DNA of 64,000 bases from Enoplolaimus lenunculus. Lineage: Eukaryota. The stretch spans positions 124,001-188,000 of the forward strand of contig JASANG010002537.1 in NCBI GenBank assembly GCA_030248215.1, read 5' to 3'. Below, in pieces: positions 879-26,000 of the stretch. Every line of letters begins with the position of its first letter. The stretch's first letter is position 1. The notes beneath the pieces were generated by a model, which did no database searches, had not been told where the DNA came from, and worked only from the letters and a program-made list of their open reading frames with translations. The position numbers and the translations under genes are program-made.

Positions 879-3800
879 TGAATTCAACACGAATATTAAA
901 CGAAGACATACACATATCGAATAGGGAAGACCAGACACCATGGATCTCTCGATTGAAAATCCGGTAACGCAATTGTTGTTCAACGAGAGATTTTTTACAT
1001 CGGTTCGCAGTATTTCTAAGATATTTTAAATTGATTTAATTCATTTTGACAATAAGGAAAACGCCCAAAATTGAGACGATAAAAAGCACAACATAATTTG
1101 GCTTTTCAGTTTTACTGTAGGCGAATGAAGGAAAAACATTTTGACAATTATAAGATGTACCTACAATTGTCGTTTTTGGCAAGTAAACTGATATACAGGA
1201 TTGTAGCATTCCTAATTTTATACTTAAACTTTACACTTGAATTTGATGTGAATGGTTGAAATACACTTGCGTTTGGTAGCTTGCAATTTCGCATTAGCAA
1301 AGTTGTGCAGATTTTTTATCATTTCAGGCTTTCTTGGTTGGAGCTACAAATGACAATTGTTCACATACATTCGTGGATTTTGCTTATCGCGTCAGTCGGA
1401 TTCATTGCTTATATTTGCTGCTGGTCGCCGAAATATGGCTCGCGAGCGAATACTAATGATTTCGTGCAAGCGAAAATCTCTGCGTTTAGCAATGCAAATC
1501 CACAGCAATGCAAAATCACTGCCTCTGTGGATTGTTTTGAGCAAAACATAGGTACGCTTGGGGCCGGTTCTGTAGCGGCCTGAGTGAGAGGTGGATAGGT
1601 AATAAGAGTCCTAGGTGACTAATTTGAGTTAATAGAAGTTTATTTCCCTAATTAAAATCAGGAAACGGATAGAGTTTAAAATTAACGCCACCAACGTCAA
1701 TTACCTTAATTCGATTGTGTGAATGCTTCCTGGACCAAACTAAAATTCAGTAGTGAATTTGATTCAAACCTAAAAGTTTACCTATATATTCATAGCAGAA
1801 TACTCAAATTTCAGACGTAAAATGCTTGGCATAATAAGTTTAGATGTGCGGTTCAAAAATCTGGAACTGAATTGAAAAATACGAAGCACTTACGAAACCA
1901 AATAGCGGGGGGTCTACGCTCACAAAAGGCTATATTAATATCAGTCACCCTCTTTTTTTCTGGTCATTACAGAATATACTACGAAAACTACGTGAACAAT
2001 TCATGAGTTAGCTACAATGTACGGACATTAAAAATATTGGAAACGGAAACGGATAGCAATGACAATACAGCAAACATACGAGCATAAAAGTTTCGCAGAA
2101 CATTATCAGTGCAATCTACCGGTACTGAGCAAGTGTGCTAAGACGTTAAACTGATGGTTAATTTGTTAATTTTAGCCAATATCTGCAATATTCTGTTAAC
2201 TTGTTTGGGTTTTACGCTAATTTCCGCCAAAATTCGGAAATACTTTCCTGAAAATTGTGACAGAAGTAAAACAAGAAGCGTTCAACAGATAAATTTTACA
2301 AAACTATGCAAAATTTTACTACCGAAATTACCGGAACCTCCGGCAAAAAAATCTGCCGGAGCTGGAGCCCAATTTTTTGCCGGAGCCGGAGCCGGAGGCA
2401 GACCTCCGGTTGTACCCTGGTCTACAAGTCTGTAATGCTTGGGTAGAAAATCAATTAGCTCACCTTATTTTGCAACCATGGATGTAATATTATAATGTTA
2501 TTTAAGCATTTTCTTCAAGACCCACCGTAAAAGTCAATAAATATTTACATATTTTTAATTTGGAGCAAACATGGATGCGGCCCATATCCAGACTGTTATA
2601 TTATATTGTCCAACTACGACAGAACTGGTATATCTTGTTTTTACCACACGAAGCATTAATAATTTATCTTGAGTGAAATTGCAGAAATACAGGCAATGCA
2701 CTAGCCCATCTAGCGGGGGCTGAGCGAGAAAGCGCACTACCTCCCGTTAGAATTTTTTTAATAAAATGGTAAGGCCCATCTTACAATTTTTGTCCCCCAG
2801 AAAACTGCGACATTACCTATAGCATAAAGTAAAAGTTGCCTTTCCTGCTTGTTCCAGTTCTCCCGTCAAAAATTTCTGCATCCGCCGCGGACCCAATATA
2901 AATATATCAGTTTCTGCAGCGACCAAGCAAATTGCTTTTTACATTTTAGACTCGATTGATCACGTTTGCCAAGCCGGGTACAACTCACGGTTTATAGTCA
3001 CTGCTAGCGACAGCCGTATCACAATCTGGAGCGTTATGGATTGCAGAAAATTTGCGCATTTCGATGTTCCAACATCGCTTTTTTGCTCCAGTTGTACGGA
3101 TGACGCATCTTCGATTCAACCAAACTTTAAACCCGTCGCAAGTGTTGCTCCGCTTAATTCAACTGGCGGAGCAAATTTGCAACGCAACGCAAATTTCACC
3201 GATGATCCAAATTTACGACAACGACGACGCGTAAATTGTCATGACGACTACGGACTGCATCGAAACGATATAAGGGCACGTAGTACGTCCGGTTTGAAAA
3301 CAGATCCAAAATCAATCGGGTTGCGGAAAATTTCAAATGAATTGTATAACGAAATGAAATCTTTGTTGGATGAGTAAGTATTGCATAATCTTTGAACTTT
3401 TTACTCGATTAATGTTAGATTTTTTTGGCAAACGCCGTTTTTCAAAATTATAACTGATATTACGTCTTATTTGAAATGGTATTCTTGCAAAGAAAAAGTT
3501 TTATATGTTCAGTTACCAGCGAAACATGTTTTTGAAGGGCAAAAAATTACACGACAGGCATGCAAAGGTTCCAAATGGTTTACAGAATGGTATAAAATTA
3601 TTCCATGGGCGACCAAAAGAATTCTGAGAACTGAGTGTCCCTCTGTCCTTCTGGTTACAGGCCTGTATACACATACATTTACGAGGATATATCTAGCAGT
3701 ATGTGTCCTTCTTATTATGAGCTGTACTTTTTTCGGCTTAGAAGCACTGATCAATATGCGAAAAGTAGAATACTTCAGAAAGTGTTGCGTTTGTTTTAGA

Positions 3801-6800
3801 GGGTTTGGTGTCAACGCTGCATCGACACGCATTCCTAAAATTTGGTGCTTAGACGCAAACGAAACCATGATATTAACCGGGTTTTCAAACGGTTTTGCAG
3901 CTGTGTTGACTGTTCAAACACCAATTACCATACTTGCTATCTTTGATCCCAATTGCCGAAGTCAACAACGCGCGTACATGGAACGCGAATCTGATTCGTC
4001 AAGCAACGGTGACGCCGGAGTGACAAAATGCGTTCTGGCTTCGAATTTTCTTTTACTGGCATACGAAAATGGCACAGTTAAGCTGGTGGAAAAGTTACAA
4101 TTGGGTTGTTTGGCATCGGTATAGTATCCTTGTTTACTTCATTTAGTTGTGTAAAGAAACGGTACATAATTGCAATGATTAATTTTTTGATCTTCACACG
4201 TTTTCACTTCTGTAAAGAGTCGAAAATGAATTGAACCAATAATGTTCATATAAACTAATTTTTAGTCTTGCAAATTGTAACCAGGGCGATGGTGGGTTTT
4301 TAGTTTAGTTCACCATATGATTACGGTACAATAATTAATTTCAAGCGCGCAGTCCTTGACAAAATGTTATTAACTATAAGCTTATATTTTCTTTTATATG
4401 CAGCTTGCAGTTGCATAATCGTGTGTAAAGAGCCAAGAAAAGTTTTTTCCATTTTTTTCACCTCTTTAAAATAGGAAATCATTTTATTACGTTCGTTTTT
4501 TGCGGTTCTGAACCCTGCTTCGAACTGTTAAAACGATTAAAATTTAAATTTTACAGCGTCCGAGAAAGCTTGCGACAATGGAATCGTATCAACTGCATCG
4601 ATGTTCAGTAACACATGTTCAGGTGAATACGTTTTATATTATGACAAGCGCAATTGATGGAACACTGGGTATTATCAGTTTGACCAACCAACGTCATAAC
4701 GTGCTAAGTATCATGGCTCATTCAAACGTGGTTACTGATTTAAAAATTGGACCAGATATTTACGGCTTTAGGTTTGTAATAATATTTTAGTTTTTTGAGC
4801 TTTTAACGATGCAACGGCTTGTACTCCAAAAAACCTTCAGTGCGCTGCACACTGGAAGCCAATAAGCGTAAGTTGATGCATAGGGAATTTTTTTTGGCGT
4901 CAGTGCGCAGCGCACGGAAGTTTTTTGGTTTCCGTACGCTAAACAGTGAAGCTTTTCGGCATCAAGTGTGTAGCGCACTGAAACTTTTTGGCTTCTCTAG
5001 TACTCATCACACTACACTGCAAAAACTCGTGAGTCACACTGACTCCCTTCGAAATAGACTTACTTTACAGGACTACACAAACTGAGTCAAATTCGACTAC
5101 ACAAATTGAGTCAAATTTGGCTCCACCAGAGTCAAACGTACGACTCGACAGTGAAAATTGATAATTTTAATTACCACTATATTATGTATCGTTCGTTGGA
5201 TCTCAGAAAAATCGTGATTTTCCAATTCACTAGATTAAATATTTCAACGTCAATCTGTATATAATATGTTTGTGTGCAGTTTTTTGTGACCAAAATAGCA
5301 AACAAATTTTTTTTAATCCTTTCAGATTCAGTACGTCATTCTGAGCACCCTGCACGAGGTTCATTACGTCATTTCTCCGCAATTTCAGGAGAGGATACAT
5401 CCCACCGATACGTTCCCGATATAGTCTCATCATTATAAATGTAACTTGTTATTGTCAGCGTGTCAAAAGCATGTCATTTAGCAGATATAACCAAGAAACA
5501 TTTTATGACTTCCATTAATTTTGTATATTTTGTACCATTTCAGTTGCGATTGTATTGGAAACGTGTGTCAAGTGAATCTTCGAAATGGCTCAGTTGAACG
5601 AACTCTACGATTTCCAGGCGAGCCTTGTCCTGTTACATGCCTGTCGTTAACTTTAGGGGTATTTTTAACAGGTACATATATAATGCTTTGCTTTACGACG
5701 AAACCGTACCCAGTGGACTCTCAATTTCTGGGTTCAATTTTTACCCTCTTTGTGATTTTTGTCCTCCGGTGTATACATTTGCTTTATTGGCTTCACAAGG
5801 AATTTCCCTTGAAAATTTTGTCCCATGTTACTTTAAGAGATGTCCAGGTTTGTGGTTGGTTTATAAAAGAGTAGGTTTAGATTCTATATTACATTTTTTG
5901 CTTAGGCTTAGACTTAAGATTAGGCTTAGGCTTAGGAACTCATTTTTGCAACGCTTAGGGTTAAGCGTATGCTTAGGAATACGCTTAATCTACTGTTACG
6001 CCCCTTAAAGTAATATTGGCCAAAATTTTTATACGACGTGACCACCTTTCCAAAACCCTGGCTTGGCCCACAGATCATGAATAAAAAGAAAACATTGGTT
6101 TTTGAAACTATATGTTTCTGGTGTAGCGGTTAGTTCATTTCAATCTTAACTTGTAAAATTTTTTCATACCAAGTTGTAATATCGCTAGTAACCTAATTTT
6201 AATAGTATATATACAAGCAGTTATAACTACTTATACAATTATAAAACGCAACATTATATAAAAGACATCAAATCGACATTTTTAAAGATTTTAATAGTAA
6301 AATCGTGGCCCGGTCGTAGAAAAGGTTTCAGGCATATTTGCCTTACATATCATCCAAAATTTTCAGTGAAATATTTCTTAAAGTGGTAGATGCAAAATTA
6401 CCACTTCAAATGGTCTTATCATGTCTGAATAAACGTACGTGCGGTTTAATAGAATAGGTAGTCATTGACGTATATATCTTGATGGATATAGAGAAACAGA
6501 AGAAGCGTTTCCTCAAAATATAATCTCACTTCAAAACGTATCAAAATCGAATATAAAAGTTTTCAAATTATGACAATGTGTTTCTATAAATTTACAAGTT
6601 TCACGCTCATTCTTGTTAATATTAATTAATAACTTTTTTCTGTGCCAGCTCAAACTGCAGATAACTCTATATGGCAATGGAAACTGGACGATAGCGGCTC
6701 ACAAATAGTCGGAGTTGTTATCAAAGCTTCGACAGAGCCGAGTATTTTTCATCATGCCTCAATTTTATCATTTGACACAAACAAATTGGTACAGGTCAAT

Positions 6801-7028
6801 TGTGACTTGGCAGGAACCATTGGTGTCAAGATATGGAACGTTACAACCAAATTGCCGGTTTCAAAACCTGATTGTGAATTAAATTTAGATCAAAGACGAT
6901 TTAGTGAAATTTTAAGCGATCTTAGTTTGTCAGCACCAAAAATCTTTCCTATTGATGAACGACAGTTTGTGATTGTATCGAATGAACTATACCGTGTAAC
7001 TAACCATTCAAATATATCTGAAATTTAG
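879..7028 (+). CDS. SCAP: SREBP cleavage-activating protein-like, 3' portion (final TM helix and C-terminal WD40 domain); spliced, 5' exons lie upstream of the window
   Basis: In-phase GT-AG exons at 879-963, 1328-1551, 2950-3373, 3800-4118, 4557-4771, 5544-5671 and 6649-7028 (stop TAG; AATAAA at 7032). The TM segment WILLIASVGFIAYICCWSPKYG is followed by WD40 blades IWCLDANETMILTGFSNG, GVTKCVLASNFLLLAYENGTV, HRCSVTHVQVNTFYIMTSAIDGTL and AHSNVVTDL, and the end NELYRVTNHS. Order and sequence parallel my recollection of vertebrate SCAP (IWSLELQGNLIVVGRSSG, GITALVFLDKRIVAARLNGSL, SELSLVYVPS). The donor at 4118 is the least certain boundary. Confidence 0.8.
2148..2446 (+). repeat. 299-bp exact copy of 10729-11027 inside a SCAP intron
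   Basis: Base-by-base identical to 10729-11027. It contains the right part of a MITE plus 27 bp of its flank. Confidence 0.92.
5820..6021. mobile_element. MITE with 8-bp TSD and internal TTAGGC-like repeats (Merlin-like termini)
   Basis: TSD AAAATTTT on both sides. TIRs GTCCCATGTTACTTTAAG / CTTAAAGTAATATTGGCC. Inverted homolog at 17785-17957. Confidence 0.75.
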
Positions 7029-8700: not shown

Positions 8701-10632
8701 GTGTTATGGGTCCCTCGCTATTTCTCTTACTTGCAACGTATTCAGCTCCTTTGGTGAGCATGATAATTGCACGAAAGTGTATATATATTGTAGTCGGGTA
8801 AACCTAATTATTATTTTGCTAAATATTAATTGTTTTGTTTACGTTCTTGTTTATCTCACATGTCATTTCGTATATATTAAAAATCTAGTATCGCAACCTC
8901 AGTGCTCCATAAAACAAAAGTAGCTTGCATTTTCGAAACGGTAACTATTACGATCGTTTATACTACAAAGAACACAATGGAAATTGTTGCTGTATCTACT
9001 CAAATATTCAAGCAGAGGCTTGAACAATGAAAGGAATCGAGGGGCTACATCTTGTCAGTAAAGTTCTGGATAGACAAGAAAAATCACTTCTATCATATTT
9101 TTCAAATAACTTTATGAATTCTGGTTAAAAAATTTTATTATGCCTGAGTTATTACCGCTTCAAACTGAAATGCAAACAATATTACAGATCGCTCTAAGAG
9201 CCTTTATTAATATGTTTCTTTTTCGCATCAATAAAGTTGTATTCGAAGCATGATAGTGTTGCCATTGGCAACTGCTCGCAGCCAGCCATAAATGTTTTTC
9301 GCAAATACTTTTGCTGATTTTATACGCCGACAAATCATACGAAGTGTACCTACCGCTTCTCAGCACAACGCATTAGCATTATCATTCATTAAACACTCTT
9401 TAAATGAATTGCTTTCATCGTTGCTACGATGAATGCCTGTTAAGATATAAAAAATTCGCCGACAGATGATTGGCTAACGAGTTATAGTGAAATAACTGAT
9501 TTGGCGATGTCCCAAATCGCTGGCAACGCGTGAAATCAGTTTTATTCGATTATTTAAAGTTCAGTAACCAAGGGTCGGATTGTGGAGAGTTTAGCACCAT
9601 CCCAACTCAGCTTCCAAGCTTAGTTGAATGATACATAAAATTTGTGTAATAACTTTGGAGATAAACATTATTTCGGTTCGCAAACGAAGACATTAGAACC
9701 TTTAAACGATTTTTTCAAACATTAAAATTTGGGCGTGAAATGATTAGGGGAAGTCATCAGAAGCTCCGATATGCAAAAAGTTTTGAATGTCGACCATTAA
9801 GGCCCTAAAATTTTAGCACACCCAAACAACATTGCCTGGGAATGGCCCGTTAGTTTCATGTCGCAAATGCATAAAACTTTTGACATTAATAGCTTGATGT
9901 GAGCTTTCATGTCTGTGTTGTGACTATTTCAAGCTGAGCAATATGCTTTACGTATATATATTTGTATATACACGTTTACACTAATATATTTGACATAAAT
10001 TACATCATAAACAGTCTATTTTTTTAAACTGACTCTTACACTGCAAACCTTCAACTTATACCAGCCATTTTCTATGGCATCAATTCAGGAAGATACTTTT
10101 AAGAGTTTACTATATATGTGCTGCTATAAACAAGTGTAACATACTTTGAGCAATGAATATGGATCAAACTCATTGCTTACCTTCATTTGGTACTGGAGGT
10201 ATTTATTTAGTCTAATCAGGGTAATTGACGTGGACTACATCCATTTTTACGTATGCTAATTAAAAAGACTTTTATAGATTTAGACTCAAAATAGGGATGC
10301 AGACCCTTATTACATATCCCCTCTTATTCGGGTAACTGCACTAAATGTGTAAAAAAAGCGTACAAGAGCCAGAAAATTTTACTTGCGTTTAAAGCGCTCA
10401 TTACTAATATTGCTTGATATATCAAGTTCTTCCATCCGGTAGACCCAACGCTAAACGATCACGTTATTGCTTGGCAGGCCCATAGAATAGTGGGGTCAGG
10501 GGGGCTCAGCCCACCCTGGACAAAATTTGTCGCCCCGAGAAATTTTCAACCTTGCTTGTAAGTCAACGAAAACCCTTATATGCACCCACCCTGAAAATTT
10601 TGTAGCCCCCTTACAAGGCGATCTGTCTACAG

Positions 10633-11000
10633 CAGGGTGCAACCGGAGGTGAAAAATACCGGAGCCGGAGCCGGAGGTCACGAAACTTGGCGGAGCCGGA
10701 ACAGGAGGTGAGACGAAATTTGGTAGTAAAACTGATGGTTAATTTGTTAATTTTAGCCAATATCTGCAATATTCTGTTAACTTGTTTGGGTTTTACGCTA
10801 ATTTCCGCCAAAATTCGGAAATACTTTCCTGAAAATTGTGACAGAAGTAAAACAAGAAGCGTTCAACAGATAAATTTTACAAAACTATGCAAAATTTTAC
10901 TACCGAAATTACCGGAACCTCCGGCAAAAAAATCTGCCGGAGCTGGAGCCCAATTTTTTGCCGGAGCCGGAGCCGGAGGCAGACCTCCGGTTGTACCCTG
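10633..11000. mobile_element. hAT-type MITE with CCGGAG subterminal repeats, inserted in the end of another hAT MITE
   Basis: TIRs CAGGGTGCAACCGGAGGT / ACCTCCGGTTGTACCCTG. TSD GTCTACAG / GTCTACAA (7 of 8 match). Confidence 0.85.
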
Positions 11001-11205
11001 GTCTACAAGTCTGTAATGCTTGGGTAGGTTAATATTGTGTTTAAGTAGTTGGAAATTATAATTCAATTAGAACTAATCAGTTTGCTACGTTTACAAGTGA
11101 AGTTTATTGCATATTATAAAAAATAATATACCATAGCGGCTCGAGTTCTGCGTTGAGCCAGGACTGCACCGAGAAAAAATGTGCGGGTGTCTGATTGTAC
11201 GGTTT

Positions 11206-11455: not shown

Positions 11456-12686
11456 TTGTTCAAAAGCAATAACCCCCTGCCACAGTTGAAGAAATTTAAC
11501 TCGTAAAACAAGCTATAACTTAGCTAAAACGTTTTCGCCTCGGCTCAAAGTTGCAACTCGTTGTCGAATTATAAGTTATTGTTAAAGTATATAAACCAAT
11601 ATTTACAAAGTGATGTATCTTATATTAAACCATCAGGATGCCTTCCATCTATTATGGTTTAGTGCGGATTTTAACACTTTCAAACTTTGCATAGTCAAAC
11701 TGGGACATATGCTTTTCCGTGTGTGGTTAAGCCATCTAACACCAACTTTCATAAACAGTATCACGCGGTGACTATTAAAGTTCTCTGAAATTGGAAATGT
11801 GGTTGATTATATTTTGATTTTTGCAAGTTTATTCTTTATTAGTTATAGGCATTTTAGAGCACCTGTCACTCATGCGAACAATTGGCTTTATAATCCAATT
11901 TTTAGTCAGCTTTCGCTGGATAGGTTTTATGTTAAAATATTCACATATAAACAGTTTATAATGTTTATTTTTCTACCAACACAATTGAGAAGCATAGCTA
12001 TATACAGGTGTCACTAAGTTTTCTGAAAATCAATTGGAAAACTCACGGACGCATCAAAAGTTTTAAGATTTTGGATCAATTTTGTTATTTTTGTTTGAAA
12101 TCGAAGTATAAAAACTAAATGATTCCTTACTATACTAATTCGAATTAAAAGAAGTCATGAATATTTATTTTGCCTCTCCATAAGATATTCTCTCGCTATT
12201 CGGTTCAGGCCTGTTTATCGAGCTTCAGTTTTTGGGGCAAACCCCTTTAATTACCTTATTATTCCAGCCATTTCTATGGTTTATTAGTTCATTAAGACTT
12301 GAATATGCTGCTACGAATATATATAATTTTGAGAAATGAAACAATTTCCTTACTGAGCTTAACGTTGCCCTGCTAGCATTCGCACAATCTGATTAGGATA
12401 ATTAACATTTATGAACTAGAGCTCTAAAATTACGAAAATAGACTCCTATTGATTCAGATACAAAATAGAGATCCCGACTCACTTAATACCTTGTCCATCT
12501 TTCGGGTCACTACAACACGTAGTTTGCAACTAGAAGTGAAATAACGAAAATTCCGGCATTTCCACAACGGAAACGGACCTAGACTTGTACCGCAAAACAG
12601 GTATCCGGTTGCACCGTGGAACGTATGCATGTAAATATTGAAGTTTTGTAGAGTTGTTTTTACAAGCAATTTGTGTAAATAAAATA

Positions 12687-15600
12687 ATGCTGACCGGCTT
12701 AGCGCGTGCAAACCGAGCTTCATGGTCAAACTCGAGTGCGCTTTCGTATCCGGTTATCTTGGTCGCGATTTGGTGGCTGTTTAGTTGGATATCGGAGCTA
12801 ATTGCACAAAAAGGCACATCGTTTCCTGTTTACGCTCGCACAAAAGCTGAAGAGTTGAATAAAATATCAGCGACCCCACGAATTTTACACAAGTTACTGC
12901 AGAACACTGCTATCCTTCGAATTGCTTCGTGTCAAAAATTTGCACTGCTAATAACATCATTAGCTGCAGTTTTATCTCAAAGATGCGTCTACAATTCGCC
13001 TCCGAAACATGCGTGCGCCTATTTAATCGCTGCAACTGTTGGTGATTTTCTAGCAACGTTAAGCGTACTTGTAATTGCGACCGTTGCTCAACTGGTTACC
13101 ACGGGTGTCCACTCTAGTGTCGTGAACATACAGCTTGGTCCATTACTGACACTATTTGTAACGTCGCTATTCTGCAATAAACAGCTGGTTGCCTTTTCCG
13201 GCATTAAATCGAACCTAGCGACGAAAGGCTGTGATAAAATGTGCCTTAAAGTATGGTTCGTTACTACGATTGCTTGTACGGGTGCAACATTTGTTGCAAC
13301 AATGAATTCAGTAACATCACGCGTTTGCCTTGTTTTTCAACTCGTTTATATTGTATCGTCAGTTGTTCGCAATTTAAGCTTGAAAGCGTTATATTCAAAA
13401 TGGTCACCTGTTCACTGTTATTCGCTAATTGCGGCGTACGGTCTTTTCCTACTGATACCGTTACAAATGATAAATTTCATATTATCGCTAACGTTCGAAA
13501 CCGACACAGTTGCGGACAACGAAAATTATTGGATACAACACAACTCAGCTTCGTATGAGTATCAAAATTCTGATTATTATTATGATTATGACAATTTTGA
13601 ACATGATACCAAATCAACGAATAGCCTTATAGGTCCTGTGTTTTCTGGAGTATTTCACAGCGGTGCCGCGTTAGCATCAGCATATCTTTTATATTTCACA
13701 CCGTTTCCACTCACTCATGCTTATATCAGTATGGTTCGTGAAATTGTTTACATTTTAAGTTGTAAAATTCTGAGCAGCACGTTTTCAATCTCGCCTTTTG
13801 AAACTCATACAGTGCGTACACGTTCAGTAATGCAATATAATGAATTAATGCAACACAGCTTAAACCAACAAATGGTATCATATTTAGGACTACTACTACT
13901 TGCAGCTAGCGTCGGTTATTATTTCGTGTGTATTATAACATCAAATAATTTGTGGTCTCGAGCACGTTCGACCGATCAGCCAGGACCCTCACCAGCATCC
14001 GGTCAGAAAACAAAACTATGTGTGTCATTGTACGGCGGACTAATTGTATTTGCCATTACTGCAAACGGCATTCTGCTAACAATGAACAATCGTCACACAG
14101 GTTGGGCAGTTACTCAATCATCACAGCATAAAATAGACCCGCCGTACTACGGTGATTACAATTATACGCTAGTAGCTTGTTGGACGTCGTCTAACGGTAT
14201 ACCAGATAGTACGTTGTTAACCAAACTGTGTTATTACGATGAAATTCCCATCGCAATATGTTGTTCGCATGTTGCTTACACCGATCGCGTACAAGAAGCA
14301 CTTGACAACACGATGCTTGGAGAAAATTTGCGTTTCACAAAGTCAGTCGATATATCAAAATTGTTGTTTTCGTCAACGTTTCGTCATCTTTTCCGTTTGG
14401 ATCGCGGTTTATTAATTCGTATCAAAAGCAAACTAAGCCGACAATTTGGTCAATTTTTGGCAAACGCGATCCGATTAAGTGTGCTACTCGCACAACCAGC
14501 CGGTACAATTTACTGCGATTTAGATTATGTCAAACCATCGGTTAAACAGATACCCAACTGCAATCATAGCTGGATACTTGTGGCGAAACAAAATGAACAA
14601 ACAAGACATACTGCACCAATGCTTGTACACATCACAGAAGCCGATCGTACAACAATTTTAGAAATGTTGCGGCGTTTGGTTGACGTTAGCTTATCGACGC
14701 TTGAACAGAACAGGTCAATCTCTTGGACACAAGTAAACCAACGAACTGGCAATAACTCAGGATTGCGCTTATTTACAAACAATCTAAATACGGCGGAAGC
14801 AGATCAAGCCTATGGTGGCGACAAATCGCTGTTAGCGTTAACAAACTATGTTCACAAAATTATGACTGGCAAACTTTGTGACGCACAATTCTGTCCTACA
14901 ACATACGGCATTAATTTAGACAGCAGTGTCAACGAAGCTACGCTTAATAACAGCGGTGAAACAGCGGCTTCGCAACTATTGAAAAACAAAAATCAAAACG
15001 CCAACAACAACTTAGAAAACCTACAAATATCATCGTGGTTAAAATTGGTATGGCTGCAACTAATGCTGCCTGACATGACACTCGAGTATGATGTGTCTCA
15101 TTTTTCTGACAAAATATTTAATAGCAAAACAAGTCTTTTGGACACTTTTGGTCTTCGTGGTAACAATAAATGGCAATGGACAGATGTACACACATTGACG
15201 GTGTGTTCCGGCGCTAACTACGTGAACGCGTCGTATATTGAACATATATCAACGGTAATAAAAACAATGGTGAACTTGACCAAGCAAGAAAATAACGCTA
15301 CAGTCACAAGCGCTGAACGCGAAAGTATAGCGGACCAAAAAATTGAATTTTTGAAAAAATATATCGCAAAGTGTGCAGTTTTACTTTTAAACCCAAATCT
15401 ATGCACAGGCGTAGTTGATGCTAAATCAACTAACGTACTAGTAGACATAGCAAGTGAACATACTCGAAAACTGGTTATTGAAACATTAAAATTCAAATCT
15501 ATACCGGTGTACATATACAAAGAAAACCCAATGGGCAACGAACCCGTAACCGATACACTGAAACGCTTATGTGCACTGCAAACTTCCAGTAAAGTGATAA

Positions 15601-16973
15601 CAGATAAAATTGAAACTGCACTTGTTGGCGTTGCCGTAGACCGCCAAGTGATATGGGCTGGTGAATTGTTTCATGATTTTTTGAACAAATCTTTTTCACA
15701 CCGGTATCCGATTCCAAACCGACTCGGACTCCAACGAGATATGCTCATCGACTTGGTCCACGTTCCAAAATGTGCAGTTAATACTACTCAATATTTTGAA
15801 CACTCAGCAAAACTGAACCGCAACCCGAATTGTTTACAGGATCGTTTGAAAGTGTTGCTGTTGACCGAAGCAGAGCCGAATCCAAATCCCGCACTGTTTA
15901 TGAGGCTCCGCGCCACCATGTTCGCATCGCTACCAGCCGCAGTCAAAACCTGTGCTCAGTTCTTCAAACTAGTTCCGTATCCGAAACCGAAATTAATCAG
16001 TCAATCACAACAAAATCTTTCACCCTTATTTCGTCCTCAAATTCACGACAGCAGTATAAACAATTCTTCAGCTAATGAATACAACCGATTACTATTTCAT
16101 TTGATATTCACAACTACACCACAACAAGCACTTGAAGTTTTTCGGTCATCAATTAACGTTAGCGGCGCGTTTAACTTCCGTCATATGCGAACCATTGAAT
16201 CGATATTTTATCATCATCCAAACGCAACCGTTTTCATTCATAGTAACACACTCGACGCAAAACAAATTGCAATTTTTCCACAAACCGGATATGATTGTCG
16301 GATTTTACCTTATAACTTGCACAAAATAATTGCCCATTCACCAGCGTTTCGCTTTACTGCATCTCGTCTTCACAAAGCTAGCAAAGGTCAATATTGGTAC
16401 AGTCATGAAACCGATTTGCTCCGACTGCTTATATTATACCATTGGGGAGGCGTTTATGTCGATACAGATATCATCCTGGTGCGTCCGTTTGATTCGCTTC
16501 CGGCTAACGTAATAGGCTGGGAAAATGTCAATACTACAATTGGTTCTTTAAACGGAGCGGTACTAAAATTTTCTAACGCTCGTCAACCATTCATTGCGGC
16601 GTGTTTGCGCGAATTTGCGGACAATTACAGACCAGAATGGAGTTCAAACGGTCCTGATCTGCTGACACGGGTGTGGCGGGCACGTAACGCTTCGGATGTT
16701 ACTGTTCAAAAAGATCAAATTACTACTGTTCATTATCAAACGTTCTATATGTTCAAATATAGTCATGTCGGTAGTTTTTGTTTTGGACACATCCCACAAT
16801 CACTGTTATTGGAAAAACTTAAAATAATGAAAACAAACGCATACGCAGTCCACTTGAACTATAAATTAACTGGGAACATTGCGACTACTGATCATAGTAT
16901 GCAAATAAAAAACGGAACACTTTGCAAGCATTTATTGAACTCGTTTTGTGTATTTTGCAATTTTGAATTTTAA
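12687..16973 (+). CDS. Single-exon multidomain membrane protein: SLC35E/TPT-like transporter fused to GT32 (alpha-1,4-glycosyltransferase-like) domains
   Basis: The frame is open from 12642 to TAA at 16973; the first in-frame ATG is at 12687, while the ORF track starts at TTG 12654. The N-terminal ~430 aa are multi-TM with TPT-like motifs (LVAIWWLFSW, VRNLSLKAL, PLTHAYISMVREIVYI, LGLLLLAASVGYY). The C-terminal ~290 aa carry GT32 motifs IESIFYHHPNA, DLLRLLILYHWGGVYVDTD, LNGAVLKF, NGPDLLTRVW and AVHLN. An upstream exon cannot be excluded. Confidence 0.85.
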   Translation: MLTGLARANRASWSNSSALSYPVILVAIWWLFSWISELIAQKGTSFPVYARTKAEELNKISATPRILHKLLQNTAILRIASCQKFALLITSLAAVLSQRCVYNSPPKHACAYLIAATVGDFLATLSVLVIATVAQLVTTGVHSSVVNIQLGPLLTLFVTSLFCNKQLVAFSGIKSNLATKGCDKMCLKVWFVTTIACTGATFVATMNSVTSRVCLVFQLVYIVSSVVRNLSLKALYSKWSPVHCYSLIAAYGLFLLIPLQMINFILSLTFETDTVADNENYWIQHNSASYEYQNSDYYYDYDNFEHDTKSTNSLIGPVFSGVFHSGAALASAYLLYFTPFPLTHAYISMVREIVYILSCKILSSTFSISPFETHTVRTRSVMQYNELMQHSLNQQMVSYLGLLLLAASVGYYFVCIITSNNLWSRARSTDQPGPSPASGQKTKLCVSLYGGLIVFAITANGILLTMNNRHTGWAVTQSSQHKIDPPYYGDYNYTLVACWTSSNGIPDSTLLTKLCYYDEIPIAICCSHVAYTDRVQEALDNTMLGENLRFTKSVDISKLLFSSTFRHLFRLDRGLLIRIKSKLSRQFGQFLANAIRLSVLLAQPAGTIYCDLDYVKPSVKQIPNCNHSWILVAKQNEQTRHTAPMLVHITEADRTTILEMLRRLVDVSLSTLEQNRSISWTQVNQRTGNNSGLRLFTNNLNTAEADQAYGGDKSLLALTNYVHKIMTGKLCDAQFCPTTYGINLDSSVNEATLNNSGETAASQLLKNKNQNANNNLENLQISSWLKLVWLQLMLPDMTLEYDVSHFSDKIFNSKTSLLDTFGLRGNNKWQWTDVHTLTVCSGANYVNASYIEHISTVIKTMVNLTKQENNATVTSAERESIADQKIEFLKKYIAKCAVLLLNPNLCTGVVDAKSTNVLVDIASEHTRKLVIETLKFKSIPVYIYKENPMGNEPVTDTLKRLCALQTSSKVITDKIETALVGVAVDRQVIWAGELFHDFLNKSFSHRYPIPNRLGLQRDMLIDLVHVPKCAVNTTQYFEHSAKLNRNPNCLQDRLKVLLLTEAEPNPNPALFMRLRATMFASLPAAVKTCAQFFKLVPYPKPKLISQSQQNLSPLFRPQIHDSSINNSSANEYNRLLFHLIFTTTPQQALEVFRSSINVSGAFNFRHMRTIESIFYHHPNATVFIHSNTLDAKQIAIFPQTGYDCRILPYNLHKIIAHSPAFRFTASRLHKASKGQYWYSHETDLLRLLILYHWGGVYVDTDIILVRPFDSLPANVIGWENVNTTIGSLNGAVLKFSNARQPFIAACLREFADNYRPEWSSNGPDLLTRVWRARNASDVTVQKDQITTVHYQTFYMFKYSHVGSFCFGHIPQSLLLEKLKIMKTNAYAVHLNYKLTGNIATTDHSMQIKNGTLCKHLLNSFCVFCNFEF

Positions 16974-20089: not shown

Positions 20090-23000
20090 CTGAAATAACA
20101 TTTAAAATGTTTCATCACATCAATTTGATTCTCCGACCATAAAATCATCTACTATAATTTAATTTAGCTGCTAATCATTTATAACGTAACCAGTACTTTC
20201 AAGACACATAGCTCCCGTTTTTGATTCAAGGCTTACACTGATACTTTCGCCAGATACCGACATGACTGTACGATCTTGACAAATAAGAAACATGTTACAT
20301 GTACTACAATTCAATAATTTACATACCTAACAGGCAATCAACTTGCTGTTCGGCCGAGAGCTGGTGTTCTGGATACCCTCTGGGGTGTTTTCGGTCTGAA
20401 CTTGTAACAACATCGTCGTATTTGCCGTACAAAACAGTTTCAACCTTCGGAAAATGTTCGCGCTTGCCAATGCCCAACTTAACCTCGTCTCTATAATCAC
20501 ACAATTACTTCAATTATATTTTTAAGCTCTGCTAATAAGACGCCTTAAGTTACAAGCGTCACAACATAGGATGAATTCGTTCCATTCATTACTGATACCG
20601 AAACATCGTATGACCCAAATGTCACAACAAACGATATCATAATCAAAAAAAGTGCTATATATCACTAATTGAGCGAAGCTCGGAGTTTCGCGAAGCGTTT
20701 TATGTTTTGTACTTGGGGGTCGAAAGATGGATGTCCGTCCGTCTGTCCGTTCGAAGAGAATCTCAGGAACGGCTGAACCGATTTTGATAAACTTTTTTGT
20801 TTAAAAGTCAATTATACTGGTTGTTAACCTCGCAGTGGGGTTTTAAAATTTTAAGCCGTTTATTAGCTGCAGGCTAATTTGCATAATTAATTAAGCCTAA
20901 ATTAGGACTTTCCACAATAATTTAACTAATTGTTACAGTTAGAAGCAATCTAATTTTAGCATTAAAAGGTTTTTGAGTGCGAGGAATCTGCATAGACTGT
21001 TTATAAACCTTCAAAACCGATAATTGAGCAGTTAGCTAACAGATAATTTGCATATTAGCATAGTTTATAAGCCTAAATTAGGACTTTTTACAATATTTCA
21101 CTAATTATTAAGGTTAAAAGCAATATAATTTCAGCAATAAAGGGTTTTTAGGTGCCAGGAATTTAAATAAATAGTTTACGAGCATCCAAAACCGACAACC
21201 GAATAGTAGGCTAATAGATGATTGGCATATTTGCTTAATTGATAAGACAGAATTAGGACTTTTTAAGTTATTTCAATAATTATTAGGGTGACTTAAGGTT
21301 TTTGGGTACGGGGAATCTGAGTAAATTGCTCACATACCTCCAAAACTAATAAATAAATAGTTAGCTAAAAACTAATTTGCATATTACCTTAATTGCTTAC
21401 GTGTGCTCGAGTTTCGCTCAATAAATGTAGTCCACTACGACTGGTAATGTCTTATTATCGTTCCTGATCTGAGCAAAGGGTCTAAGTAATATAATTTGTG
21501 AAATTGAGTATTTTAGTATTATAGCATTCCACATACGTACACCGTTAGCCTCTATCTCTAAATTGACATAGCAATAATGAACAGAATTGCAAATGACCTA
21601 GAAAAAAGATTTTTATAAGCAAAACTTGTTAATTTAGTAAAATATTATCTATAAGGTGTTGTTAAATCTTTTGTTTTACGCTTATTTTTTGCAAAATTGC
21701 ATTAATTTTTGACCGAAATTCTACCAAAAATGAAAACAAAACGTACCAAACATAATATAAACTTTGCTAAATCGTAAACAAAATCTTTTGTGAAAGCAAG
21801 AGATGGCACGAGCTGTCGTTCATTAATTGTTTACTGTCACTAAAAATGACCAATTATTTCTGAATGTGAACCATGCAATTGGATTACAATAACGCAAACC
21901 TTCGAATGGTGATGGGCAACGATAAGACGGTAGTACAACGACCCAGCAATACGTTTTATGTTACCTCATAATCGGAATAGGATTGTCGCCATCAAGTTTT
22001 CGGCTCGCAACATCAATTTTTTGTTTCGGAAACCACACATTTGTTGACGTTATTAGCGCAACAGCAGTCTCTCCATTTTCGCGTAACTGTCGTCGCGCAT
22101 TGTCCTAAGATATTAAACCAGGAACTCATAACAGAATTTTACAATAACGATTACAGTTTTTTGAGTAACAAGATGACTACGAATATTTTCGCTATAAAAC
22201 TTTTGTACCATTGATAATAAAAGCATTTCACTAATATGACCATTACAGGGAACGTTTCCATTAATCTTTTTCAAGCGTATAAAAGTAATTGAATTCAACA
22301 TCAGTGATGTGCGGCAAAGATGGGTGGTCGACCGAGACCGATACCCAACCTAACCTACCGAGACCGAGACTTTTGGTCTCGGTCTCGGTCATTTTTAACC
22401 GTTACCGAAAATAAAAAGAAGATTTTTTAAGCAAAGTTTTGATTTTTATCTGCTCTGAATTGCTGTTTCATACAATTAAACTAATAAATGGCCGCCGAAC
22501 ATTATTTGTTACTTTATTTTTCACTTTGCTACTGTCAATACCTTACGAACAGGCTCGGCACAAATCACACAGTGTCAAAACATCCTCGATACAATCCTAA
22601 TTCAGAGCTATAGTGTTGTTTTTGCTCCTGGATAAACCAAATAGACTGGAAAACTTTTAACATAGCGTCACGTTATAAATACGGATGACCCATAATTTTT
22701 AACACGATGCCTTAAATGATTTAAACGCGAAAATGCAAGTTTTTGTGTTTTGTCACAATAAAATCAAAGTGTTTTAAGTTTCCATTCAAAAATAGAAATT
22801 TCGGTAACCGGAGGGTTATTCTGTTTCTCAAATCGCTGTATAACCAGGTTGCCGTGCTCCACAATCGTTCGCAGTCTGTGTTAGTAGGCGAAATGCGCAA
22901 GTACTCCCGGGCCAAAACTGCGATCAAAGAAAAATCTTTTTGATTCCTTATCGCTTTTTCGCCTCTTTGGTCTCGATTTGTAAACAACCGAGACTGAAAA

Positions 23001-26000
23001 AAGCGAGAACGAGACCAAGACCAGCCATATTTCGAGACCGAGACCGCCCATCCGTGTTCAACATCGGTCTGAAAATTATGTATCCGCCCTATTAATATGC
23101 AAGTTTGAAGCTTGCTCAACAAATTAAAAGTTTAAAATTGTAACAAAAATCCATAAACCAACATTAAAAATGTAATCCTTTCAACTTCTCATGCACAATA
23201 CTTACCATCCAATCTACAGAGGGTTCCTTCACAAAAACTTGCATCGTATTGAGGAGTAAATGCTTTTGTGACCGAAATACGCGCATGGTGTGATGCATAA
23301 CGCTACGAAGCATGCCTTCAACTCCCAATGGCTGTAGCACGTTAATCATTTGGCGAGTCATACGAAATGGAACGAGTTCATTGACGGGTAGGAACTAGAA
23401 AAATATTTTTCTAACTTTTAAAATAAGCAAAAGTATTTATGCAACAGCGTGCGACCGGCCGTTAAAGTATGATTTGGTAAAAGGAACTGGATATTGTCAG
23501 ATAATACCCCGGAAACACTTTCCTGTTTTGACTTTCACGTTTAGAACAACATGCCAACAGAAAACTGGGGCAACATATCAAATCGATTCAATTTCTGAGC
23601 ACAACTTACTACTTATATATCAAATATTGTTTAAGGTGGCGCCATACTTTTCAATAATTTTAATGTCATAGAAGATGCCACTTTTTAATAGGTAAAAGTG
23701 CCCCTAGAAGGGACAGATTGTAATATGTTTCGCTTGAAGCATGTAAAAGAGTTTAAACAAGGGTTAGTTAGACCATAGATCAGTAGGTAATGCTTATAAT
23801 ATTAGCTCCATAACTTCTATGAAAATAGTTGTCATCTATATCTTTGACCGCTGTCTTTCAGTGTTAACACGCTTACGGTCAGCGAAAAAAGAAACATATG
23901 GGCCCAAGGGACATCACCTATCAGCTAAATTTTAGCCTTTGTTGGGTTTTACAATGTTCAGAGTTTATAAGTGATCTAATCCAGAATTCTTCGTTGGAAG
24001 AGGAAAATTTTTGAGTTTTATAATATTATGTTTCTAAAACTTGATTAGTAAATATTTCAATATTGCAAGATTACAAATTGCGTCTATCGATAATCGAATA
24101 AAAAAATGTGCCACCTAACGTGCTCGAATATTTTCGCTATCTTTACTACGACAATTTGATGATGTAAAGTCGAGAAAGTTTTCCAAATTGTGTTCTGTGC
24201 CGTGACATATTTAAGCTATTCATCTAGAAAATATAATTCTAACGTTGCTAAATATTTCAAAGAACATGTTCTGCTAGCACTCAATTGGGATAACTTTTAA
24301 AAAGCAACTGACTGATATACGAAAGGCATGTTGAGCGTTGTACATTAGAACGCCTTGAAAACCAATAGTGTCAATTTATAGCTCAACACTTTTAAGTTCC
24401 TTGGGCCCATATGTTTCTTGTTTCACTGACCGCAAGCGTGTTAACACTGAAAGACAGCCGTCAAAGATATAGATGACAACTATTTTCATAGAAGTTATGG
24501 AGCTATTATAAGCATTACCTACTGATCTATGGTCTAACTAACCCTTGTTTAAACTCTTTTACATGCTTCAAGCGAGACATATTACAATCTGTCCCTCCTA
24601 GGGGCACTTTTACCTAGTTTCTTTCTTTTACATGGGATACGGTGAGGTTTAATGCTAAGTCTACTCCTAAGCGTGCGCCTAAGCCTAAACAAAATATAAG
24701 TCTAAAGCGTACACTTGCTCCATCGCAATCCACCAAAAAGCAGCCTGTTCTAAGCTATAATGCATGAGAGGTTATTACAAAATATTACTGTCTTAGTAAG
24801 CAATTTCAGTAGAACAAACATCGCAGTGACACGTAATCTATTGCACGTTGTCAATAGCATCACACAATAATATCGACTAGCTATGGTAATTACATATTTG
24901 TAATACAATTTTTTCAAAAAATTACAAAAATCAAACTTTTAATAACAACTTAAATGAGACGTTTAGCTGTCCAATTTGTGTATGGTGTCGAAGCGGCTAA
25001 TTAGGATATTAGGCACGTAAGTTACCTCATTCCAGCTCTTCTTTCCTGCAGAGAACATTCTGCAAACTTTCAAAAAGCGTGCATTCTCGAGGCTTGAAAC
25101 ATATATTGAAAACACTACCGTGTTTCAATGATACAGGAATTGATACATGTTAGTTTACAAAAATACAGTCAAATCATCAGCAAAATATCACTTAACGATG
25201 TGTATTAATTCAGCCTTCAATAAACGAGCTACATACGTAACAGGTTAATCATAATAATGAATTGTACTGACTTGCATACTTGCTCCAAACGCATAACCAA
25301 AGTCAATTCCAACCACAGCACCATCGGTTTCTGATATCATTAAATTGCTCAAATGTCGATCACCGATTCCAAGCAAGTAATGAGCAACGGACATTACAGC
25401 GAGCGAAGTACAGTAATTGTTCCGAATTACAAGAAACGCTTCAGGAGTTGCACACATATTAACAAAATGTCGTCTGAATTACATTTACAAACTAAATTAG
25501 AGTCTGACTTTTGTACGCAGCAAAACAATACAATACAAATTTTCCATGAAAATATGAAAGGAAATCATTTGACGTCGCATAGCTAGAGTTTCAAAGTAAA
25601 TACATGACAAATACCTGCAAAAAGGTGTTGTAGCTTGCTACTAAAACAATGTATGCACGTGATGCAAGTTGACACTGAAAATCTAAAATAGTGCTTCTGA
25701 AGTTACATAATTTACCGAAATAGATCCCATGGGATCGCTTCCTGGGCCGCAATCATGCGATCAGTGACCACTTTATTCGATTCGCCGACAAATGATCGAA
25801 GATACGGGGTTGCTGGCGCTTCTGACTTGGTACGTCGTGCAAATGCTTTACGAACAAGTGTCCTGAAAAAGAACAACCAAAGCTCAAATTCGGCTTAAAA
25901 ATCGGTGACATTATATCAAAATAACCTCCGAAAATACACAACGTTCTCTAATAAGTCAGCTTAATTCTCTGCTTACCAGTTCCAGCCTTGTTCTCAACAA

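What the first reader, a model, noticed from the sequence alone, without database searches (positions are those of the whole stretch)
12687..16973. Nucleotide-sugar transporter fused to glycosyltransferases: a candidate one-polypeptide Golgi glycan assembly line
Seen: one stop-free ~1430-aa ORF with a multi-TM N-terminus (~12750-13940), another hydrophobic helix (~14016-14083) and a C-terminal domain with GGVYVDTD (DxD at 16461-16469) and other GT32 motifs. Established: SLC35/TPT proteins import nucleotide sugars into the ER/Golgi, GT32 enzymes (A4GALT, A4GNT) use them in the lumen, and in model animals these are separate genes. Inference: the fusion could channel donor sugar straight to tethered catalytic domains to build a specialised glycan or glycolipid. 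I do not know of a characterised animal protein with this architecture, though uncharacterised relatives may exist in invertebrate proteomes.
Basis: partly seen in the sequence, partly recalled or inferred. Interest (0 to 1): 0.9.

Follow-up and report, generated by a model that had tools for sequence, protein, structure and literature searches.

The report
Animal pyruvylation fusion protein, eroded copy
This intact 1,428-residue gene belongs to a family found in sponges, hydroids and sea stars that joins a membrane transporter, a predicted pyruvate-transferring enzyme and two sugar-transferase domains in one chain, likely importing phosphoenolpyruvate (not nucleotide sugars) to pyruvate-cap cell-surface sugars, although this particular copy has lost the key transporter and pyruvate-transfer residues and likely works only as a membrane-anchored sugar transferase.

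Summary
The ORF is real: 1,428 aa, stop-free, with no stop or indel where two further DNA runs cover it. It is a strongly diverged member of a family with the order SLC35/TPT-fold transporter, extra TM helix, GT32-like domain, polysaccharide pyruvyltransferase (PvT), GT32. Named relatives are from sponge, hydroid, sea stars and an amoeba. The family transporter resembles plastid phosphate translocators far more than nucleotide-sugar transporters (E 2e-30 versus 6e-8) and keeps their four phosphate-binding residues. Its decay tracks loss of PvT, not loss of GT32: 25 of 26 PvT-dead members have a changed tetrad, while 29 of 39 GT32-dead members keep it. The best reading is a one-chain version of fission-yeast Pet1/Pvg1: PEP import plus glycan pyruvylation. 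That would supply a candidate enzyme for the pyruvylated glycans known from sponges and sea hare. The independent-pairs test was not significant, one pocket residue disfavours PEP, and nothing was assayed. The window's copy has lost three of four transporter residues and the PvT motifs, keeping only the C-terminal GT32 intact.

The parts
12687..16973 (+). Single-exon ORF, 1428 aa, member of the TPT-GT32a-PvT-GT32b family
   Evidence: colinear with relatives over its whole length in alignment A1
12744..13943 (+). 10-helix DMT/SLC35-fold domain (aa ~20-419), eroded: Ile148, Ala327, Arg351, Glu352 at the positions of GsTPT2 Lys204, Tyr339, Lys362, Arg363; no Lys/Arg in aa 108-164
   Evidence: model matches 5y78 Z 20.9, rmsd 3.9, 287 aligned, and 9gs5 Z 21.5, rmsd 3.8, 277 aligned
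13500..13622 (+). Asp/Tyr-rich insertion (aa ~272-312) between helices 7 and 8, absent from the 12 relatives in A1, predicted disordered and by helix count lumenal
14022..14078 (+). Eleventh TM helix (aa 446-464), predicted to place the three C-terminal domains in the lumen; 18 of 20 N-glycosylation sequons lie after it
14154..14921 (+). GT32-like GT-A domain a (aa ~490-745), diverged; carries a CDLD (DxD-like) motif at nt 14517
   Evidence: model matches 8ovt Z 11.0, rmsd 4.1, 184 aligned; family profile hit aa 585-642
14934..15962 (+). Relic of the polysaccharide pyruvyltransferase domain (aa ~750-1092): family NLGD, RD and RxH motifs lost (RIH read as KIE at aa 974-976); N-terminal lobe low confidence in the model
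   Evidence: family PvT profile 21.9 bits versus best of 300 local shuffles 9.8
16083..16970 (+). Intact GT32 (A4GALT/A4GNT-type) domain b (aa 1133-1428) with ETDLLR, DTD, NGP and HLN motifs
   Evidence: Pfam PF04488 and PF04572 over cut-off; 80% of family-conserved columns kept versus 30-35% in the other three domains

Best explanation
The gene is a diverged member of an uncharacterised four-domain family whose intact members likely import phosphoenolpyruvate into the Golgi through their own phosphate-translocator-type domain and use it in their pyruvyltransferase domain to pyruvylate glycans, while this copy has lost the transporter and pyruvyltransferase residues and likely acts only as a membrane-anchored GT32 alpha-glycosyltransferase. 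Shown here: the domain order, the folds (as predicted models), the residue states and their co-variation across 104 sequences. Inferred: PEP/phosphate antiport (pyruvyl transfer releases phosphate, the likely counter-substrate), Golgi location, lumenal orientation of the enzyme domains, and activity of GT32b on a glycolipid or proteoglycan acceptor with UDP-sugar supplied by ordinary separate transporters. The eroded membrane domain of this copy would remain as anchor or Golgi-retention scaffold.
For: (1) The family profile's best solved relative is the plastid phosphate translocator 5y78 (E 2e-30; SLC35B1 6e-8; CMP-sialic acid and GDP-mannose transporters not listed at E<=10). The model of intact member P0003 (pLDDT 90.4) matches 5y78 at Z 30.3, next 25.8. 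(2) The four phosphate-binding residues of 5y78 (Lys204, Tyr339, Lys362, Arg363; bioRxiv 10.1101/169169) map in register onto the family and are exact in 59 of 104 rows. (3) The third lumenal-side domain passes Pfam's PS_pyruv_trans cut-off in 5 of the 11 first hits and equals it in one more. In the P0003 model its best match is yeast Pvg1p 5ax7, Z 13.2, rmsd 4.7, 242 aligned. Pvg1p depends on the PEP transporters Pet1p and Pet2p (PMC4872226). (4) Coupled decay: 25 of 26 rows that lost PvT motifs have a changed tetrad, versus 20 of 78 that kept them; 29 of 39 rows that lost or lack the GT32b DxD keep it exact; only 1 of 104 lost both enzymes. By hand-picked lineages, 1 of 7 PvT-lost versus 11 of 12 GT32b-lost hold an exact tetrad (Fisher p 0.002; 0.02 with a stricter rule). 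Outside the motif columns, PvT-lost rows keep 64% of conserved transporter columns but 88% of GT32b columns. (5) Five relatives of 851-909 aa carry TPT+GT32a+PvT and no GT32b. An Atlas cluster of 60 proteins, 613 aa, carries PS_pyruv_trans (97%) and TPT (93%), commonest in Mollusca (score 0.79, a lead only). (6) Window copy: branch lengths 1.83 / 2.51 / 2.68 in transporter, GT32a and PvT versus 0.56 in GT32b.
Against: The phylogenetically independent pairs test was not significant: PvT loss versus strict tetrad change went the same way in 4.3 and the other way in 0.1 of 7 pairs, median p 0.125; with the looser threshold median p was 0.5. Branch-rate covariation did not separate transporter-PvT (partial r 0.33) from transporter-GT32b (0.29). 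15 of the 26 PvT-lost rows form one clade, and 20 rows changed the tetrad while keeping PvT. The family has Phe at the position that the TPT paper says clashes with PEP (PPT has Asn) and mostly Asn in place of His185, so PEP specificity is not read off the pocket. The sequence match of the family to Pvg1p is weak (E 0.28), so the D106 and R217 equivalences are inferred from motifs and fold. The window model was built with relatives' alignment rows, so its fold is partly inherited, and its mean pLDDT is 62.8. The host animal was not identified and no activity was tested.
Confidence: 0.6

Rival explanations
1. One reading: the membrane domain is, or has become in this lineage, a nucleotide-sugar transporter that channels UDP-sugar to the tethered GT32 domain(s).
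For: The fold is shared with nucleotide-sugar transporters, and the window model cannot tell them apart (9gs5 Z 21.5, 5y78 20.9, CST 19.0, Vrg4 18.9). The membrane domain is kept full length in members whose only intact enzyme is GT32b. Transporter-GT32b rate covariation is 0.29.
Against: The family profile favours 5y78 by more than 20 orders of magnitude. Transporter integrity correlates negatively with GT32b motifs across rows (rho -0.36, n 98), and members without GT32b keep the transporter. The nucleotide carrier SLC35B1 also needs basic residues in TM4 and TM9 (PMC12267056), whereas the window has no Lys/Arg in aa 108-164 and an Arg-to-Glu change in TM9.
Confidence: 0.12
2. The family transporter moves another phosphorylated solute (triose or hexose phosphate, or only exports the phosphate released in the lumen), with PEP supplied by a separate SLC35E-type carrier; the PF04230 domain may transfer something other than pyruvate.
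For: TPT-like Phe in the pocket and His185 replaced. Many relatives have GT32a-PvT-GT32b or PvT-GT32b without any transporter (25 and 28 of 234 proteins, fragments included). 20 of 78 PvT-intact rows have a changed tetrad.
Against: Apicomplexan translocators carry both triose-P and PEP, so one residue is not decisive. The RxH PEP-binding motif is kept in intact members.
Confidence: 0.13
3. The window copy is neofunctionalised as a two-headed glycosyltransferase: GT32a, which lacks a canonical DxD in most relatives, is active here through its CDLD motif and works with GT32b.
For: CDLD at aa 611-613 follows a helix resembling the GT32 RLxxL motif. The GT-A fold is kept. GT32a is conserved together with GT32b in PvT-lost rows (0.86 and 0.88).
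Against: GT32a is the most eroded domain of the window protein by conserved columns (0.30), with branch length 2.51. The CDLD is out of register with the family motif in the alignment.
Confidence: 0.08
4. The gene is a decaying, non-functional copy.
For: Three of four domains lost their motifs; 10 of 18 observed coding substitutions are non-synonymous.
Against: 1428 codons without stop or indel in the window and in run X2, and none in the parts a second sample covers. GT32b keeps 80% of conserved columns and all scored motifs. The same state, transporter and PvT eroded with GT32b kept, recurs in other lineages.
Confidence: 0.05

Closest known systems
Schizosaccharomyces pombe Pet1p/Pet2p (Golgi PEP transporters) plus Pvg1p (pyruvyltransferase, PDB 5ax7)
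   Same: Same two functions predicted: a transporter supplying PEP and a PF04230 GT-B-like enzyme with RxH motif on the lumenal side.
   Different: Separate genes in yeast; here one chain with two extra GT32 domains.
Plastid phosphate translocators (TPT/PPT/GPT/XPT; GsTPT2, PDB 5y78)
   Same: Best sequence and structure match; Lys204, Tyr339, Lys362 and Arg363 kept in intact members, and Thr188 and Phe263 in most.
   Different: No plastid context; His185 mostly Asn; fused to lumenal enzymes; only 1 of 4 phosphate ligands has a basic equivalent in the window copy.
GT32 alpha-1,4-glycosyltransferases (A4GALT Gb3 synthase, A4GNT; Pfam PF04488 + PF04572)
   Same: C-terminal domain passes both Pfam cut-offs, with DxD.
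   Different: Those are type II single-pass proteins (recalled); here the domain sits at the end of an 11-TM four-domain chain. Donor and acceptor are unknown.
Nucleotide-sugar transporters SLC35A-D (CST, Vrg4) and the ATP/ADP exchanger SLC35B1
   Same: DMT 10-helix fold.
   Different: Much weaker sequence match than 5y78; not known to me as fused to transferases (recalled).

Membership tests
GT32 (A4GALT/A4GNT-like), domain b | PF04488 and PF04572 above curated cut-off | tested here: met
   60.6 bits (cut-off 23) and 49.2 bits (cut-off 22.3)
GT32 (A4GALT/A4GNT-like), domain b | DxD metal-binding motif with upstream DxxR | tested here: met
   ETDLLR at aa 1241-1246 and DTD at 1259-1261
GT32 (A4GALT/A4GNT-like), domain b | Retaining alpha-glycosyl transfer from UDP-sugar | not testable with these tools
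   needs an enzyme assay
DMT/SLC35 superfamily (window copy) | 10-helix DMT fold | tested here: met
   model aa 13-422 matches 5y78, 9gs5, CST and Vrg4 at Z 18.9-21.5, rmsd 3.8-4.0; the model used relatives' alignment rows
Phosphate translocator / TPT (window copy) | PF03151 above cut-off | tested here: not met
   no TPT hit at E<=1; family-built profile gives 7.2 bits versus best shuffle 3.4, or 37.4 versus 14.5 without composition correction
Phosphate translocator / TPT (window copy) | Phosphate-binding Lys204, Tyr339, Lys362, Arg363 | tested here: not met
   Ile148, Ala327, Arg351, Glu352; the residue opposite Lys204 varies with the alignment (Thr) but no Lys/Arg lies in that helix
Phosphate translocator / TPT (intact family members) | PF03151 above cut-off and tetrad kept | tested here: met
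   TPT over cut-off in 9 of 11 first hits; exact tetrad in 59 of 104 rows
PEP-specific translocator (PPT) | Asn at the TPT Phe262/263 position | tested here: not met
   Phe in 76 of 78 rows of A3 (Leu in one, Ser or Val in the window row)
Nucleotide-sugar transporter | Closest sequence kin among solved SLC35 structures | tested here: not met
   5y78 E 2e-30; SLC35B1 6e-8; CST and Vrg4 not among the 11 matches at E<=10
Nucleotide-sugar transporter | Nucleotide-sugar/NMP antiport | not testable with these tools
   needs proteoliposomes
Ketal pyruvyltransferase PF04230 (intact family members) | Pfam cut-off and Pvg1p-like fold | tested here: met
   P0003 aa 568-840 versus 5ax7 Z 13.2, rmsd 4.7, 242 aligned
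Ketal pyruvyltransferase PF04230 (window copy) | PEP-binding Arg/Arg-x-His and acceptor Asp (Pvg1p R217, R337, H339, D106) | tested here: not met
   0 of 5 scored residues kept; R337/H339 mapping rests on a 36-residue match to 5ax7 and an assumed chain start at residue 54; D106 and R217 mapping inferred from motif
Ketal pyruvyltransferase PF04230 (window copy) | Pvg1p-like fold of aa 750-1092 | tested here: inconclusive
   region partly below pLDDT 50; 5ax7 not in the listed rows; the wide search of this model could not be run
One-transcript fusion | Full-length mRNA across all domains | not testable with these tools
   no RNA run was listed for this stretch; the single stop-free exon makes a split product unlikely

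The most novel reading that the evidence does not exclude
Sponges, cnidarians, echinoderms and probably molluscs own an undescribed self-supplying pyruvylation machine: one polypeptide that imports PEP and transfers pyruvate onto glycans built by its own GT32 domains. It is the missing animal enzyme behind the pyruvylated sponge adhesion glycan and sea-hare nerve glycolipids. Paralogues repeatedly split the labour, keeping either the PEP/pyruvylation half or the GT32 half, and the window gene is an extreme GT32-only case.
Probability: 0.5. Interest if true: 0.85.

Novelty: new variant of a known kind. Interest (0 to 1): 0.68.

Why it matters
Pyruvylated glycans are known from sponge adhesion proteoglycan and Aplysia glycolipids, but the 2019 review names only three characterised pyruvyltransferases and, in the passages read, none from an animal (PMC6801904; PMC6994554). 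This family supplies named, clonable candidates (Halichondria, Hydractinia, Asterias, Patiria) and a direct test by yeast complementation. It also suggests pyruvate capping, a sialic-acid-like negative charge, is far more widespread in invertebrates than reported. A transporter covalently joined to the enzyme that consumes its cargo would be a natural model for donor channelling in the Golgi. The window gene itself is the eroded form and is less interesting than its relatives.

Tried and rejected
Pfam on the window's N-terminal and middle parts gave nothing useful (one sub-threshold Cache hit). phmmer of the window protein against PDB found only short GT32-type matches. No RNA holder was listed for the stretch, which says nothing on expression. 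No whole genome is held, so paralogues could be sought only in the window; none was found. A PvT-centred profile gave only E 0.38 for 5ax7, below chance-like FICD hits. Branch-rate covariation and the independent-pairs tests did not reach significance. A viral origin found no support: 0 of 62 pattern matches in viral contigs were relatives. In prokaryote genomes 1 of 27 matches was a relative, a 4.6-kb contig 98% identical to P0039, read as probable host contamination; these pattern scans only reach close relatives. An attempt to place the host taxon with the neighbouring DNA-PKcs exon gave only vertebrate hits at 31-34% identity, so the animal stays unidentified. Literature: ten searches listed no paper describing this fusion; several were dominated by irrelevant terms, and subscription journals are largely missing. 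The Pet1 paper is not held. Three look-ups of earlier scan findings returned nothing. The wide fold search of the window model and Atlas searches of the window protein did not complete.
Full report
Observation. The window holds one ATG-to-stop frame at 12687-16973 (+) of 1428 aa, in AT-rich DNA (GC 33-41% per 2 kb) beside a multi-exon DNA-PKcs gene, so the host is a eukaryote, most likely an invertebrate (inference). Pfam supports only the C-terminal GT32 domain. Laying three DNA runs on the locus gave 18 coding substitutions, 8 synonymous and 10 non-synonymous, and no indel or stop; one run covers the whole ORF and the second sample covers part.

Family. A search with the whole protein returned 11 relatives among 7994 scored candidates; 10 are 1131-1206 aa and carry TPT with the GT32 families, most also PS_pyruv_trans. 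A profile search gave 85 among 7995 candidates. A search of 1.84 billion representatives with P0003 gave 479 at E<=1e-30, of which the best 150 were listed. With family-built domain profiles, 110 of 234 proteins in hand have the order TPT-GT32a-PvT-GT32b, 14 TPT-GT32a-PvT, 25 GT32a-PvT-GT32b, 28 PvT-GT32b and 1 TPT-GT32a-GT32b; fragments are included. Names given by sources: Asterias rubens, Patiria miniata, Halichondria panicea, Hydractinia symbiolongicarpus and Balamuthia mandrillaris, all uncharacterised or hypothetical. The window protein is colinear with the family but far diverged (23-28% identity; end branch 1.83). Each of its domains scores above 300 locally shuffled controls, narrowly for the transporter; the GT32a score is partly cross-match to GT32b.

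Folds. The model of intact member P0003 (pLDDT 90.4) matches 5y78 over aa 4-314 (Z 30.3, rmsd 3.2, 288 aligned), a GT-A glycosyltransferase over 353-559 (8ovs Z 16.0), Pvg1p over 568-840 (5ax7 Z 13.2, rmsd 4.7, 242 aligned) and GT-A enzymes over 885-1166. The model of window aa 1-1130 (pLDDT 62.8) keeps the DMT fold (Z 20.9-21.5) and the GT-A fold of domain a (Z 11.0); the PvT region is partly unresolved. Ten helices plus an eleventh, and 18 of 20 sequons beyond it, point to lumenal enzyme domains (inference from established SLC35 topology).

What the transporter carries. The family profile hits the plastid phosphate translocator at E 2e-30 and SLC35B1 at 6e-8. The alignment puts 5y78 His185, Thr188, Phe192, Lys204, Phe263, Tyr339, Lys362 and Arg363 in register with one constant offset. 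The TPT preprint (10.1101/169169; passages and section 7 read) shows the last four bind phosphate and are each needed for transport. In fission yeast the Golgi pyruvyltransferase Pvg1p gets PEP from Pet1p and Pet2p and is modelled to bind it with R217, R337 and H339 (PMC4872226 passages; PMC10435577 passages; PMC6801904 passages and section 5.1.3). The family's ITQRIH motif aligns with the R337/H339 stretch of 5ax7 (weak match, offset assumed). A phosphate-translocator domain fused to a PEP-consuming, phosphate-releasing enzyme suggests PEP/phosphate antiport. Against this, the family has Phe where PEP-specific PPT has Asn.

Comparative test. From 109 proteins covering both transporter and PvT, I dropped 6 near-identical cluster members and added the window, leaving 104 rows. 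Transporter and PvT motif scores correlate (rho 0.70, n 103), transporter and GT32b scores anticorrelate (rho -0.36, n 98). 25 of 26 PvT-lost rows have a changed tetrad against 20 of 78 PvT-intact rows; 29 of 39 rows with GT32b DxD lost or absent keep the exact tetrad; 1 of 104 lost both enzymes. Away from the motif columns, PvT-lost rows keep 0.64 of conserved transporter columns, 0.67 of PvT, 0.86 of GT32a and 0.88 of GT32b. Lineages picked by hand from a FastTree tree give 1 of 7 versus 11 of 12 (Fisher p 0.002, or 0.02 with a 75% rule; one row counted in both sets). The formal independent-pairs test pointed the same way but was not significant (4.3 versus 0.1 of 7 pairs, median p 0.125), and rate covariation did not discriminate (0.33 versus 0.29). 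An Atlas lead shows a 60-member, 613-aa cluster with PS_pyruv_trans and TPT, commonest in molluscs (score 0.79). The transporter's partner is therefore probably the pyruvyltransferase, with moderate statistical support.

The window copy. It has Ile148, Ala327, Arg351 and Glu352 at the four phosphate positions and KIE for RxH at aa 974-976; NLGD and RD are gone. It keeps 0.35, 0.30, 0.35 and 0.80 of conserved columns in its four domains. SLC35B1 also needs TM4 and TM9 basic residues (PMC12267056 passages), so a switch to nucleotide-sugar import is not favoured. The simplest reading is a GT32 alpha-glycosyltransferase held in the membrane by a dead transporter. It groups with four relatives in a similar state, but its branch is long and the placement unsure.

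Comparison and novelty. The parts are known; I found no paper on the fusion in ten searches (listings and abstract starts only, except the papers named here), and passages of PMC3111387 on DMT evolution did not mention it. Pyruvylated animal glycans are reported for the sponge Microciona and for Aplysia (PMC6801904, PMC6994554 passages; the primary papers seen only as references). No supplements were read; gene-list supplements of invertebrate genome papers may mention the architecture. I rate it a new variant of a known kind: the Pet1/Pvg1 logic in one animal polypeptide.

Verdict. Observation confirmed; interpretation partly supported, with the donor reassigned from nucleotide sugar to probably PEP and this copy judged largely dead outside GT32b. 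Best explanation 0.6, interest 0.68, carried mainly by the intact relatives.

Noticed in passing
window 33498-63998, minus strand: Exons of a DNA-PKcs (PRKDC) gene, including a 592-aa stop-free frame at 61623-63401 (Pfam DNAPKcs_CC1-2, E 1e-69); only 31-34% identical to the three vertebrate hits.
   Followed up: partly
L001:2-2674 (CBDATR010000045.1): A family member 98% identical to P0039 lies on a 4.6-kb, 36% GC contig of a Nitrosopumilaceae MAG; probably host DNA binned into an archaeal genome.
   Followed up: partly
window 13500-13622 (+): Asp/Tyr-rich insertion in the transporter domain that resembles a tyrosine-sulfation site (recalled pattern); absent from the relatives in alignment A1.
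   Followed up: no
family-wide (alignment): GT32a lacks a canonical DxD in most members yet is well conserved and tracks GT32b; it may be an acceptor-binding pseudo-enzyme.
   Followed up: partly
P0032-P0039, P0066-P0070, P0004/P0005, P0009/P0010: Several groups of paralogues list the same longest-contig length (for example 1,787,149 and 264,422 bases), which hints at tandem expansion of the family in some genomes.
   Followed up: no
window 2142-2435 and 10606-11016 (+): The same roughly 290-base element occurs twice (near-identical translated frames); probably a dispersed repeat.
   Followed up: no
window 12428-12476: Short multi-copy repeat about 210 bases upstream of the start codon; many contigs match here and diverge on both sides.
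   Followed up: no
window ~1260-7028 (+): Several exon-like frames with beta-propeller-like sequence (WD40-like by eye) but no Pfam hit; an unidentified neighbouring gene.
   Followed up: partly
window 22721-23131 (-) and 26408-26869 (+): A frame that looks like the end of a hAT-type transposase (recalled motif) and a short tandem repeat coding a TATATAV-like run.
   Followed up: no
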